Assembly (NCBI GenBank): GCA_964016885.1 | Contig: OZ024743.1 | Span: forward strand, 216,504,001-216,568,000 | Length of the DNA: 64,000 nt | Origin: Eledone cirrhosa | Lineage: Eukaryota | Reading direction: 5' to 3' | Shown: positions 23,896 through 47,078 of the stretch, piece by piece | Layout of the letters: each line of letters opens with the position of its first letter | Position numbering within the stretch: position 1 is the first letter of the stretch | Program-made: the position numbers and the translations under genes | Notes under the pieces: generated by a model | What the model was told of the DNA's origin: nothing | Databases searched by the model: none | What the model saw: only the letters and a program-made list of their open reading frames with translations

Positions 23896-23989
23896 ACCCC
23901 TTGAGAAGCTCGGCTATTTAAATACCAGGATAAATTTTCATTTAGTCCAGAATTAGCCGTCGAAACGGCTTGAGCTCAGCCGTCGGGGT
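23896..23989 (+). ncRNA. Hammerhead ribozyme, U3:A8 core variant (family B)
   Basis: acccc TTGAGAA g..cggcta...tagccg.c GAAA cggct-tgagctc-agccg TC ggggt. Confidence 0.8.
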
Positions 23990-24149
23990 TTTACTGGTTC
24001 CTATTTCCCACTCTACTACCCTAAGTATTGAGTACTTTGGTGTGTTATGGTCCACCTGGTTCCTGACCACATTTCCTTCGTTATATATATATATATATAT
24101 ATTTCTTTTTTTTTATTTTATTTTATTTTTTTTTTTTTTTTTTTTTTTT

Positions 24150-24227
24150 CCTCTTCGTGCAATGGCCATACTCGATAACGAGGGGGCAGCCATCATGTAT
24201 GTATGTATGTATGTATGTATGTATGTA
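24150..24227 (+). mobile_element. RTE 3' tail with (ATGT)n
   Basis: tggccatactcgataacgagggggcagccatc(atgt)n, homologous to 19250-19297. Confidence 0.7.
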
Positions 24228-24457
24228 TTTATAATCGCGAATATAGCGAATATATTTTCCATAATGTTTAATATATATATTTGTGTGTGTGAGTGTATGT
24301 GTGTATCCGTATGTAATTGATGACTGTGAGACAAAAGAACTCACTACCGAATTAGAGTTCAAATATTAAATTCGTTAAGGTTAAATAGTGATCCCGAGAG
24401 AAGCATGTGAAACTTCAGAATAACAAGATTCACTATTTAGTCTTCATATAACGAAGA

Positions 24458-24600
24458 TCTACTATATAAATGGCAATTTCTGTCTGTCTGTGTGTAACCA
24501 GATGGCGTCTAAAGCAGTGATCCGATCCTGATGAAACTTTACACACATGTTAAGCTAATATTCAGAAATAGGGCTGGCTAATTGGATTTTAAAAAAAGTC
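24458..24600 (+). mobile_element. Helitron-like 5' end
   Basis: A|TCTACTATATAAA...ctgtctgtctgtgtg...ccgatcctgatgaaacttt is typical of non-autonomous animal Helitron heads. The 3' CTAG hairpin was not located. Confidence 0.55.
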
Positions 24601-42197: not shown

Positions 42198-42729
42198 ATC
42201 TATCTATCTATCTATCTATCTATCTATCTATCTATCTATCTATCTATCTATCTATCTATCTATCTATCTATATATATATATATATATATATATATATATA
42301 TATATATATATATATATATATATATATATATATATATATATATATATATATATATATATATATATATATATATATATATATATGTATATATATATATATA
42401 TATATATTTATATATATATATATATACCTCACTTTCTAATATATATATATATATACAATATATATATATATATATACATATAGATATATATATATACCTC
42501 ACTTTCTAATATATATATATATATATACAATATATATATATATATATATATATATATTTATATATATATATATATATATATATATATATATATATATATA
42601 TATATATATATATATATATATATATATATATATATATATATATATATATTGTATATATATATATATATATTGTATATATATATATATATATATATATATA
42701 TATATATATAAATATATATATATATATGG

Positions 42730-45700
42730 AAAGTTATATTTAAATTGTTGGGTTACAACTAGTAAATATTTATAACTGATATAAAAGCACTCCTCGACAA
42801 GTATTTGGAGTATATTTACGATATTAAATAAATGGAAACTATATTTATAAAACCATATTTATTTCATTATATATATTTCAGGGATATCATATTAACAATA
42901 TGCTATGCCTTCCTCAGACAAAATACAATATAAACAGTTTTATAGATAAATAGATTTGACATACCGTACAACATCGACTTGTATTTGAAAAGTTGTATTG
43001 GCAGTGAAAAAATTGTAGACAGAGAGAAAGAAAGAGAGAAAAAGGAAAGAAAGACAGAAAACGAAGAAAAAGAAGAAAAAGAAGAAATGCATGGAACAAA
43101 ATAGAGAGATGGAAAGATAGATAAAGAGAAGAACTTCATGTAAAGAAACAGAGAGATATATATATATATGTATAGAGAGAGGAAATAGAGATAGATATAT
43201 ATATATATAGAAAACTAGGTAGTGGGACATCCGTTGAGTAAACGTATCAATGATACATTTATTTATTTATTTATTTATTTAGCTCTAGTATTAATGTAAG
43301 GGAGATATATGTGGTTAGGAGAGAAACCAGCTGTTATATACAGAGAAAAATTAAAAATAACCAGACATAGGCGAGGCATAAAAACCCTATGTTTTAATGT
43401 AGAGGTATTAGTATGTATAAAAACCAGCCACTATATTGTAAATATCAGTATTCCTGAATGAGACATGTATCCATAATGTGTGAAAAGTAATGATCTTATG
43501 TTTAGTTTTTTTAAAAAATGCATATGTTTATATGATAACTACAAACATCTATGTGAATTTACATGATCAACTCTGCAAACCCTAAGATCACGGAAAACAT
43601 TCTCATTGTGCTATAAAAATTTAAGTATACATATATGTGTATATATATACACACATATATATATAGAGTCTATATTACTACTATTTATGTCTTTACTCGA
43701 CAAGATTATCTATCAAGCAGAGATAGAGAGCAGATTTCAATATATTAATAAAAAAATATATATCAGAAACAAAACCAAAAAATAGCAATAATAATAATAA
43801 TAATAATAAATAATAATAAAATAGAAAACTAAAAAATATTACGAAAGAATTTTACATATTAAAAATATTACATATTAAAAATAAAAATATTAGAAAATAC
43901 TACAATAATAAAAATAAACCACAAAGATCAACCCTTCAAAATTAATTGACAATATATTGGCAAGTTCATTATAAGCATCAGAGTCGAAAAACAGATAAAG
44001 CTAAAAATTATTTATCAAATCGCATCTAGCAAAAATCATTTCAAAAAGTTTAGGATGCCCATTTGGTCTACATGTGTTCTTATATTTAATATAGAAGTTT
44101 ATCTAGTGTAACGTTTATTCGAAATATTTGGAGCATCAACTTTTAGGGTAGCTTAATTTTTCATGAAGAATGTTTAAATAAAAATAAAAATAAAAAGAAT
44201 AAAAAGAAGAAATCGAAAGATTTATCGGCTAGTTTCCCATATAATTATAAATCAAACTAAATATACTACATTTTAAATTTAAATTTATATTTAAAAGTTG
44301 AGTTTAATCTATGTTTGCAGCAACTGAATAAATTTGTCCGTAGATTAAGGGAATTTTTAGATTTTAGTATAAAGAATATCTCCTCTGCGCAGAGGTCACA
44401 TGTCTCAGAGGATGAATTAAAAGGAATCCCTCTTGAGACTATATTCCAAGCCGTCGAATATCTAACGTTATCTAGCTTAAGTTGCCAGAGTACGCCTGAT
44501 AGTGCCGTTGAAGATTTTTTGCTTGGATCTGTGAAAGAATTCTTGTGGTTATTATAGCGAAGTTTAAATTCCGTCGATGTGGAACCGACGTAGTTAAAAG
44601 AATTAGAGTCAGTTTTAACATTACAATTGTATACTATATCTTTAACTAAGCAGTTGTTATTTAACGGACATTTAGATCTATCTCTACAGTTACATTTGTT
44701 AACTTGTATATTATTTATGCTATTATCACTAGGTTTTAAGTTCCTATTATTTATTCTATTAATATTTTGTGCTAAATTTTTGGTGGATGAGTAGGTTAAT
44801 TTTATAGTATGTCTATTGAAAATTGAGTGATACCTATGTGTTCTAGGGAAGCGATTATCAAGAGCTTTAAAAAATAGTTTAGCGATGTGGGTTTTAATGT
44901 TTAGTGAGAAAGGGGGGGGCAAACCAAATTATGTTCCTAGTTCTATTTCTTTTTTGTCCTTTGGAATTATTGTAATGCTTTCTATTATAGTTGTTAAGGT
45001 TGTTGCAGTAATTAAAATAGTTGTTATTTTGTTTAGTTTGTCTATCATTATATATGTACATAATCTTATCAGTATATCCTGCTCTAGCTAATGCTTCATT
45101 GTAGTGTTGGGCTTTTTCGTCGAAAATCTTTCTATTCGACGAGATCCTAGAGATACGTTTTTGAACAGAGTTTACTATAGTGTTTTTGACAGATCTGGGG
45201 TGGTTAGAGTTAAAGTTGACATAGTTTAAGTTTTCATTCAACTTGTGAAAAGGATAGTGAAGACATGTGTTGAGATTTAATGTTATATCTAGGAAATTGA
45301 CTATTCTATGGTTGTTCTCAATTTCTATTTTAAGATTAAAGTAATTAAAAAAATGTGTAATTTGTTTACATTTTCTATTTAGTTCAGAGTTATTATTATC
45401 AATAAGTAAAAGCATGTCATCTCTATATAAACCTCCGGTAGTACCAGGTATTTTCCTATGTAGCGAATTGATTAAAAATAAGCCCACAAGGTCAGTTACC
45501 TGAGCTGAGTCGGATGATCCCATAGTAATGTCAAAATTGCTATCTCTATCTGCTCTGGTCCATAGTTGGTCATTAAATTCTATCAAAGTTTTCCTAGCCG
45601 ATAATATAATATGCATTTCATTGCTTGTTAGGTCAGTATGTTTGAATGCGTAATTTAGTGCCTTATTTAGTAGATTAGGGGTAATAGAAGAATAAAAGTT

Positions 45701-46510
45701 AGCAATATCAAGTTGAATAAACTTATTATTATTGTTATATTTAATTTGCTTAAACCACTCAACAACCTCTCCAGTTCCCTTCCACAAGCTCAGGTTAGAT
45801 AAACAATCCAAGTTCTTAATTTGCTGTATCACCCTGTCAAGAAAATTTTTGTTGCTTAATTTGCCCAGGTCCGATTTGATGGTGCGATCAATCTAACTGG
45901 CAAGTCATTTTCAAAATTCCTCTTGTGATCTTTCATATTGATCTTCGGTTTCCTGGGCACGAAAGGTTGTGTTCTGTTCTCAATTTCCAACTCGTGCATT
46001 ATACAAGATGCTTCGACATTCATTTTCTCAAGCTCGGCCTTATCTGCTACCTTGTACTTTTTCCTCAGTTCCTTCAGTATGCGGCCATTATACATGTCAA
46101 CGGATGTCCCACTACCTAGTTTTCTATATATATATATCTATCTCTATTTCCTCTCTCTCTCTATATATATCTCTCTCTGTTTCTTTACATGAAGTTCTTC
46201 TCTTTATCTATCTTTCCATCTCTCTATTTTGTTCCATGCATTTCTTCTTTTTCTTCTTTTTCTTCGTTTTCTGTCTTTCTTTCCTTTTTCTCTCTTTCTT
46301 TCTCTCTGTGTACAATTTTTTCACTGCCAATTCAACTTTTCAAATACAAGTCGATGTTGTACGGTATGTCAAATCTATTTATCTATAAAACTGTTTATAT
46401 TGTATTTTGTCTGGGGAAGGCATAGCATATTGTTAATATGATATCCCTGAAATATATATAATGAAATAAATATGGTTTTATAAATATAGTTTCCATTTAT
46501 TTAATATCGT
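42730..46510 (-). mobile_element. Penelope-like element with inverted 5' terminal repeat (family C)
   Basis: ORFs 45856-46095, 44894-45832 (FIQLDIANFY, MGSSDSAQ, YRDD, NFLDI, IIWFAPP) and 44266-44922 (CNC..CPL, VY..YVG, CDLC, CKH). 46100-46510 is the reverse complement of 42820-43235. Confidence 0.93.
42860..42925 (-). ncRNA. Hammerhead ribozyme (family C)
   Basis: tattttgt CTGAGGA agg...cct GAAA tatata TA atgaaata. The inverted copy at 46403-46468 has the core mutated to CTGGGGA. Confidence 0.82.
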
Positions 46511-46880
46511 ATATATATATATATATATATATATATATATTGTATATATATATATATATATATATATATATATATATAAATATATATATATATATATATA
46601 TATATATATATATATATATATATATATATATTGTATATATATATATATATATATATATATATATATATATATTGTATATATATATATATATATATATATA
46701 TATATATATATATATATTGTATATATATATATATATTGTATATATATATATATATATATATATATATATATATATATATATATATACAATATATATATAT
46801 ATATACAATATATATATATATATATATATATATATATATATATATATATATATATATTGTATATATATATATATATATTA

Positions 46881-47078
46881 GAAAGTGAGGTTTTTTTTAC
46901 AAAATGAAAAGTAACCGAGGTGTCCTACACGAGTGACAAAAACCACAGTCCCTCCATCTCAATTCACCTTTTGAAAAGCAGAAGAACTGCGAAACCGGTA
47001 AAGGAACCAAATAAATATATATATTTTTAAAAAAAATAAGACTCCAGTTGCATTTTCGATTTCATATCTTTTTCTTTA
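46881..47078. mobile_element. Family J terminal repeat with internal inversion
   Basis: 46881-46936 has the same orientation as 41142-41197, and 46937-47078 is the reverse complement of 41203-41340. Confidence 0.75.
46967..47004 (+). ncRNA. Minimal hammerhead ribozyme (38 nt), U3:A8 core variant
   Basis: cctt TTGAAAA gcag-aagaa-ctgc GAAA ccgg TA aagg, with palindrome ACCGGT. Confidence 0.82.

What the first reader, a model, noticed from the sequence alone, without database searches (positions are those of the whole stretch)
23896..47004. Compensated U3:A8 catalytic core in two unrelated ribozyme families
Seen: family B (23901 TTGAGAA, mirrored at 21377) and family J (46971 TTGAAAA) both replace CUGANGA with UUGANAA while stems I-III and GAAA/UH remain intact. 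Known: positions 3 and 8 form a tertiary pair (C3-G8) in the active fold, and a U3-A8 swap preserves it. Inference: the same double change in two families indicates selection for activity. Standard CUGANGA searches would miss these. The 46967-47004 motif is only 38 nt.
Basis: partly seen in the sequence, partly recalled or inferred. Interest (0 to 1): 0.75.

Follow-up and report, generated by a model that had tools for sequence, protein, structure and literature searches.

The report
Penelope hammerheads with drifting core pair
Both motifs are hammerhead-shaped, predicted self-cutting RNAs at the ends of two different Penelope-like jumping genes; their U-A core pair is already published, but one family's copies show the pair changing one base at a time and multiplying about a thousand times while mismatched, so an exact pair is likely not needed for these elements to spread.

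Summary
Observation confirmed: three type I hammerheads with U3-A8 (23896-23989 +, 21295-21388 -, 46967-47004 +). B ends a Hydra-clade Penelope-like element, J a Neptune-like one (proteins 21% identical). U3-A8 is the family state: J has 11,371 copies, 64 without U3, none of those G8. The variant is already published, including in Penelope elements (PMC3088659, PMC4209133).

The inference fails for B: 990 of 1,695 exact-context copies are C3·A8, a mismatch. A tree of 16 subfamily consensuses and their divergence give single steps: C3-G8, U3·G8, U3-A8, C3·A8, U3-A8 (window), with a U3·G8 side branch. The C3·A8 ORF consensus is intact and under purifying selection. Other core bases stay fixed. 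Copy ends lie beyond the predicted cut site, so templates were uncut or re-ligated.

Best reading: a slow ribozyme that tolerates any pyrimidine-3/purine-8 pair; cleavage untested. The scan noted the C3·A8 phase before in this genome, and a similar walk in another.

The parts
23896..23989 (+). Family B type I hammerhead motif, U3(23901)-A8(23906), predicted cut after C23984; sense to the element ORF
21295..21388 (-). Inverted copy of the family B hammerhead, other end of the same insertion
21280..21995 (-). Inverted, 5'-truncated end of the Hydra-clade element (3' UTR plus hammerhead); stops 103 nt after U3, against (TA)n
21988..22741 (+). C-terminal ORF fragment of the Hydra-clade element (linker and GIY-YIG-type endonuclease), in two reading frames; 87-92% identical to aa 459-708 of the L063 protein
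22742..24080 (+). 3' UTR/pseudo-LTR with hammerhead and 76-nt tail; ends 179 nt after U3, against (TA)n
23940..23948 (+). Zone inside hammerhead loop II where short family-B copies begin; holds an AGT that is invariant in all 16 subfamily consensuses; likely transcription start (initiator-like, motif recalled)
46967..47004 (+). Family J minimal type I hammerhead motif, U3(46971)-A8(46976), palindromic stem III, predicted cut after A47000; predicted to work only as a dimer
46933..47079 (+). Short family J copy, -38 to +108 relative to U3: 3' end of a Neptune-like element, spanning the predicted cut site
46880..46936 (-). Inverted tail fragment of family J, forming the other end of the same insertion in (TA)n

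Best explanation
B and J are pseudo-LTR hammerhead motifs of two Penelope-like retrotransposon clades and likely act as slow, possibly protein- or dimer-assisted self-cleaving RNAs whose 3-8 position needs only a pyrimidine facing a purine, not an exact pair. Shown: the motifs; their place at the 3' end of RT-endonuclease ORFs; in B a master lineage that changed 3 or 8 one base at a time (C-G, U·G, U-A, C·A, U-A, plus a U·G side branch) while the other core bases stayed; copy ends downstream of the cut site. Inferred: reverse transcription starts inside the RNA, 19 and 95 nt past the cut site in B and about 78 nt past it in J, so the template must be uncut or re-ligated there. A fast ribozyme would destroy that template, so weak cores are tolerated and cleavage acts on a fraction of transcripts (trimming read-through or tandem RNAs). 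J would cleave as a dimer through ACCGGU. B could cleave as a monomer, as a dimer through its near-palindromic stem III, or as a split motif joining the RNA's two ends, since transcription likely starts inside loop II.
For: Hosts: B has RWR, DKT, CxCx5C and (TA)n targets, matching Hydra; J has GLKF, DKG, Cx4CxxC with Pfam RVT_1 and GIY-YIG and runs continuously from ORF to motif in L042, L050, L054, L075. C3·A8: 990 exact copies; 26 of the first 100 of 5,488 core-unconstrained copies have C3; T23901C in 34% of depth in run X1 contigs. Ladder tree on 347 columns with 3 and 8 removed, most nodes UFBoot 89-100, and median non-CpG divergence falling 0.10, 0.09, 0.08, 0.07, 0.05, 0.03, 0.025, 0.008 along it. 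C3·A8 ORF majority: 0 stops, 0 gaps in 571 codons; 52 synonymous and 14 nonsynonymous differences to the U3-A8 majority against 70:96 private, P=5e-7. Unconstrained sample: U4, A6, A8, A9 100 of 100, G5 98 of 100, while 3, 7, 10.2 vary. Ends at +103/+179 (B; 119 and 109 fragments) and +108 (J); no pile-up of starts at the cut site. In vitro, hammerhead mutants of an anole Penelope element still insert and cleavage needs the protein (PMC11167929).
Against: No cleavage was measured and no RNA run is available. I found no paper with rates for C3·A8. Core conservation in the older layers is partly circular, because the patterns that fetched them fixed U4, G5, A6, A9 and GAAA; only one search is unconstrained, and it covers younger layers. 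The 3' half overlaps a likely promoter, which could explain its conservation. Three tree nodes are weak (53, 58, 75), the order of the oldest C-G and U·G groups among them; ages come from picked, not random, loci, and the youngest group is enriched for top hits to the window. J kept U3-A8 across all layers seen, and B returned to U-A, which suggests some selection for the pair. C3·A8 RNAs might have been cut by other copies in trans.
Confidence: 0.55

Rival explanations
1. One reading: U3-A8 is a compensated pair held by selection for full catalytic activity, reached independently in two families.
For: U3-A8 is fixed in J (11,307 of 11,371 have U3; 32 of 35 old copies) and is the majority in the B radiation (73 of 100); B went back from C·A to U-A; U3-A8 is reported active in vitro (cited in PMC3088659); the hosts are different clades.
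Against: Mismatched C3·A8 and wobble U3·G8 masters amplified; position 3 changed 4 times on the consensus tree against 5 for the free position 7 and a mean of 2.4 in loop II; no coupled double step is seen.
Confidence: 0.2
2. Cleavage is essential, but the template is a re-ligated circle or multimer; intact motifs in genomic copies are restored at the circle junction, and even a weak core makes enough circles.
For: Explains partial-tandem pseudo-LTRs and ends beyond the cut site; proposed in PMC4209133; catalytic bases stay fixed.
Against: Short copies start at a fixed upstream point (B +31 to +57 in 14 of 19 incidental fragments; J -47 to -32 in 19 of 25), as expected for linear transcripts with a defined 5' end; unprocessed RNA was the main substrate in vitro in PMC11167929.
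Confidence: 0.15
3. The motif no longer cleaves in these lineages; it is kept as a protein-binding structure or promoter, and positions 3 and 8 drift.
For: Weak folding support; likely transcription start inside B loop II; positions 3 and 8 change repeatedly; cleavage is dispensable in vitro in another Penelope element.
Against: U4, G5, A6, A9 upstream of the start site are fixed while neighbours 7, 10.2 change; J stems I and II were repaired stepwise towards the canonical G10.1-C11.1 form; no amplified master with a purine at 3 or a pyrimidine at 8 was seen beyond two G3 copies.
Confidence: 0.1

Closest known systems
U3-A8 minimal hammerheads of Cercyon Penelope-like elements, Schistosoma mansoni (Cervera and De la Pena 2014, PMC4209133; parts 1-2 of 4 read)
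   Same: Type I motif in Penelope pseudo-LTRs, U3-A8 core in large numbers (about 1,300 hits there), palindromic or tiny stem III, inverted pairs, mostly truncated copies. J fits closely.
   Different: No mismatched or wobble 3-8 subfamilies and no order of changes are described in the parts read. B has a 6-bp stem III and a 37-nt loop II.
Natural U3-A8 covariation in hammerheads (Perreault et al. 2011, PMC3088659; passages read)
   Same: Same core covariation, reported in several natural examples, with a citation for in vitro activity.
   Different: Not tied to retroelement subfamily history in the passages read.
Hydra clade of Penelope-like elements and their hammerheads (Craig et al. 2021, PMC8557442; section 11, passages, supplement part 2 with File S2)
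   Same: B's protein has RWR, DKT, CxCx5C, flanking CxxC and CxH, (TA)n targets, tail at one end, inverted truncated copies.
   Different: All Hydra-clade motifs listed in File S2 have the C3-G8 core with short loops and 3-4 bp stem III; B has left C3-G8 and is much larger.
PAc Poseidon element of Anolis (Frangieh et al. 2024, PMC11167929; passages and section 3 part 2 read)
   Same: Two internal reverse-transcription start sites giving a tail; template not cut at the hammerhead.
   Different: Different clade, C3-G8 core; only C3G, G8C and the double mutant were tested, not C3·A8 or U3·G8.

Membership tests
Type I hammerhead ribozyme | Three stems around the core, ends in stem I | tested here: met
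   J's stem III only as a dimer, B's stem II interrupted
Type I hammerhead ribozyme | Core U4 G5 A6 N7 A9, G12 A13 A14, A15.1-U16.1, H17 | tested here: met
Type I hammerhead ribozyme | Watson-Crick pair between 3 and 8 | tested here: met
   Met for the three window copies and for J; not met in B's parent subfamily (C3·A8, 990 copies) or the U3·G8 groups
Type I hammerhead ribozyme | Hammerhead is the favoured fold | tested here: inconclusive
   within 2.4 kcal/mol of the B minimum; z above -1.5
Type I hammerhead ribozyme | Site-specific self-cleavage after H17 | not testable with these tools
   needs an in vitro assay or raw RNA reads
Penelope-like element, Hydra clade (B) | RWK-type motif, DKT, CxCx5C linker, CxxC and CxH around the endonuclease end, C-terminal EN | tested here: met
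   L063 ORF against the definitions and the alignments
Penelope-like element, Hydra clade (B) | (TA)n insertion, pseudo-LTR, inverted truncated copy, one-sided tail | tested here: met
Penelope-like element, Hydra clade (B) | Placement in an RT phylogeny with reference Hydra elements | not tested
   assignment rests on motifs only; no Pfam hit for the B protein
Penelope-like element, Neptune/Nematis type (J) | RT plus C-terminal GIY-YIG, GxKF, DKG, CX2-5CxxC linker | tested here: met
   L075 ORF; linkage to the motif
Penelope-like element, Neptune/Nematis type (J) | Neptune versus Nematis by phylogeny | not tested
   no reference tree built
Non-LTR retrozyme | Non-coding tandem units, each with a hammerhead, no ORF | tested here: not met
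   Both motifs are ends of ORF-bearing elements; a few J loci have direct repeats about 900 nt apart (L052, L053), not examined further

The most novel reading that the evidence does not exclude
Family B is a dated natural walk across the hammerhead 3-8 fitness landscape: one autonomous retrotransposon lineage passed through C-G, U·G, U-A, C·A and back to U-A, amplifying at each stage, with a natural C3·A8 core in over a thousand copies. Penelope hammerheads would then be tuned to cut slowly because reverse transcription needs uncut RNA, and the resurrected subfamily motifs would test directly whether and how much cleavage these elements need.
Probability: 0.5. Interest if true: 0.6.

Novelty: new variant of a known kind. 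Interest (0 to 1): 0.4.

Why it matters
The role of hammerheads in Penelope-like elements is still open (Craig 2021 calls it unclear; Frangieh 2024 finds cleavage dispensable in vitro). The U3-A8 pair itself adds nothing new. The B lineage does: it supplies natural alleles in all four pyrimidine-3/purine-8 states on nearly the same scaffold, ordered in time, with copy numbers as a rough read-out of success. It also warns that covariation between family consensuses can hide long mismatched phases, so it is not proof of strong selection on a pair.

Tried and rejected
Private mutation of the window copies: rejected. Assembly error as the source of C3·A8: unlikely; it is linked to other diagnostic changes, shared by both ends of single insertions and present in run contigs (X1 may be the sample behind the assembly). 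Register shift of stem I in C3 copies: rejected, they have five C against four G. C3·A8 as a non-autonomous passenger: not supported (7 C-group and 9 U-group alignments, 571 of 710 codons). U3·G8 groups as private A-to-G mutants: rejected for groups c1 (17 of 19) and c12 (8 of 13, with linked N7=G), accepted for scattered others. A C3-G8 ancestor of J: not found (0 of 64; 0 of 35); the search was limited to 40 scored candidates. Rfam scan: no listed hit on the three motifs. Expression: no RNA holder listed. The short-alignment consensus tree had weak support (41-67 for most nodes) and was replaced by the longer one. The first tree lacked an outgroup. Papers wanted but not held: Przybilski and Hammann 2007, Lunse 2017, Martick and Scott 2006, one on C3/G8 simulations, so rates for single 3/8 mutants are not cited first-hand. 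Searches for C3-A8, G8A and C3U with hammerhead found nothing relevant; one search found only R2 ribozyme evolution; subscription journals are not covered.
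Full report
OBSERVATION. The three motifs are present as described. B (23896-23989, +) has stem I of 5 bp, core UUGAGAA, an interrupted stem II with a 37-nt loop, GAAA, a 6-bp stem III and C17. Its mirror (21295-21388, -) is the other end of one insertion, since the arms 21280-21995 and 23285-24004 are inverted repeats. J (46967-47004, +) is a 38-nt minimal motif whose stem III is only the palindrome ACCGGU. A strict descriptor finds 3 U-A motifs in the window and a mean of 0.01 in 100 shuffles. Folding energy gives little support: z-scores are -0.75 to -1.46, and the hammerhead form of B is 2.4 kcal/mol above the minimum. 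Two J strands co-fold at -20.3 kcal/mol with the palindromes paired and both stems II formed.

HOST ELEMENTS. The window lies in a 3.0-Gb genome rich in (TA)n. Long B copies carry an ORF with RWR, DKT, CxCx5C and C-terminal endonuclease motifs (L061, L063), the features given for the Hydra clade of Penelope-like elements (PMC8557442 section 11; alignments). The window holds its C-terminal part (21988-22741, 87-92% identical). J lies about 1 kb after a 770-aa ORF with Pfam RVT_1 and GIY-YIG, GLKF, DKG and a Cx4CxxC linker (L075), continuous with the motif in L042, L050 and L054; this is Neptune/Nematis-type by motif. The two proteins share 21% identity over 446 columns. Clade names rest on motifs, not on a reference tree. 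'Unrelated' is therefore fair at the clade level.

FAMILY STATE OF 3 AND 8. J: 11,371 exact-context copies with 3 and 8 free; 64 lack U3 (36 C, 16 G, 12 A by my count), all with A8. Older J layers are also U3-A8 (83 of 85; 32 of 35). B differs: of 1,695 exact-context copies, 990 are C3·A8. In the wider B radiation 6,222 copies have A8 and 103 do not. With the whole 5' core left free (5,488 copies; first 100 listed) position 3 is U in 73, C in 26, G in 1, while U4, A6, A8, A9 are 100 of 100 and G5 98 of 100; positions 7 and 10.2 vary by subfamily. C3 is shared by both ends of single insertions and linked to other changes, and shows in 34% of depth in run X1 contigs and 4% in X4.

HISTORY OF B. 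Older relatives with canonical CUGAUGA exist. Among the first 100 of 176 copies of the older stem III types I count 14 C3-G8, 8 U3·G8, 72 U3-A8 and 6 others. From all loci, 244 motifs were extracted, 232 kept with a genuine 5' arm and 220 with homologous upstream sequence. Unsupervised clustering with 3 and 8 masked, after dropping 7 rows (fold-back artefacts and singletons), gave 16 groups of 213 rows. The tree of their consensuses (347 columns) is a ladder: C-G (c6, c7, c13), U·G (c12), U-A (c9, c10), U·G side group (c1), U-A (c2b, c2c), C·A (c2a, c4a-c), U-A (c5a-c, the window's group). Support is 89-100 at most nodes, 98 and 100 for C·A enclosing the window group, and weak at three (53, 58, 75). 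Median non-CpG divergence falls along the ladder from 0.10 to 0.004-0.025. The loci were partly picked, so group sizes are not frequencies, and c5c is enriched for top hits. On this tree position 3 changes 4 times, 8 twice, 7 five times, loop II 2.4 times per site, and nine other core bases never; that last figure is partly built in by the search patterns. The majority ORF of C3·A8 copies has no stop or gap in 571 codons and differs from the U3-A8 majority by 52 synonymous and 14 nonsynonymous codons, against 70:96 for private changes (P=5e-7), so the lineage was autonomous through the mismatched phase.

COPY ENDS. B copies end 103 or 179 nt after U3 (119 and 109 fragments of 395), J copies at +108, all past the predicted cut sites (+84, +30). 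Short B copies start inside loop II (14 of 19 incidental fragments at +31 to +57; depth rises about 8- to 18-fold there in X1), at an AGT that is invariant across groups and resembles an initiator (recalled motif). Short J copies start at -47 to -32 (19 of 25 incidental). None piles up at the cut site. This matches the two internal reverse-transcription starts and uncut template reported for an anole Penelope element, where hammerhead mutants still insert and cleavage needs the protein (PMC11167929).

MECHANISM. Shown: motif, host, stepwise change, amplification while mismatched, ends beyond the cut site. Inferred: the ribozyme is slow and cuts a fraction of transcripts; the template must stay whole, so any pyrimidine-3/purine-8 combination is tolerated, with perhaps mild selection back to a true pair (0.55). 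Rivals: strict compensated pair (0.2), obligatory cleavage with circular templates (0.15), non-catalytic structure or promoter (0.1). Cleavage was not tested, and I could not read the papers with single-mutant rates.

PRIOR KNOWLEDGE. U3-A8 covariation in nature is in Perreault 2011 (passages); about 1,300 U3-A8 motifs in Schistosoma Penelope elements are in Cervera 2014 (parts 1-2 of 4; supplements not read). Hydra-clade motifs in File S2 of Craig 2021 all have C3-G8. Also seen: a bioRxiv preprint on retrozymes (part 1 of 5; supplements closed), passages of PMC6765202, PMC7151607, PMC6155905 and PMC3774820. Searches found no natural C3·A8 hammerhead or stepwise 3-8 history, within an open-access library. 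Earlier scan notes, read after my own counts, report the C3·A8 phase in this genome and a wobble walk in another; they are not independent support. The lead on copy starts came from one of them (e1-9570153) and was checked here.

VERDICT. Interest 0.4; new variant of a known kind.

Noticed in passing
window 3501-3545 (+): Minimal type I hammerhead with canonical C3-G8 and palindromic stem III; weak Rfam HH9 hit at 3490-3561.
   Followed up: no
window 53706-53776 (-) and 42860-42925 (-): Two further C3-G8 hammerhead candidates beside other Hydra-type ORFs (53689-50849 and 46092-44266; 31-45% identical to the B protein).
   Followed up: no
window 41139-41348 (-): Second family J insertion with tail; its hammerhead has lost part of stem II and GAAA.
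   Followed up: partly
window 32513-32690, 55579-55673, 17849-17923: Short fragments of family B relatives that lack the 5' half of the motif.
   Followed up: partly
family J, L287-L316 and rows: J stems changed stepwise: stem II closing pair U·U, G·U, G-C, and a fourth pair gained; stem I passed A-U, A·G mismatch, C-G.
   Followed up: partly
L052, L053 (G000:C3:68.10 Mb): Family J motifs in direct repeats about 900 nt apart, possibly a non-autonomous tandem derivative.
   Followed up: no
L144, L285: Two B copies share G3·A8 with A at 10.1, possibly a tiny sublineage with a dead core.
   Followed up: no
window 3155-3241: Perfect 87-nt palindrome (alignment).
   Followed up: no
window 18327-18779, 58996-61257, 7955-8897, 20454-21083, 49367-49939: A mariner-like transposase fragment and several LINE-like RT/endonuclease fragments, judged by eye from the ORF list; names recalled, not searched.
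   Followed up: no
window 32810-34163 (+): Another broken Hydra-type ORF, 40-47% identical to the B protein.
   Followed up: no
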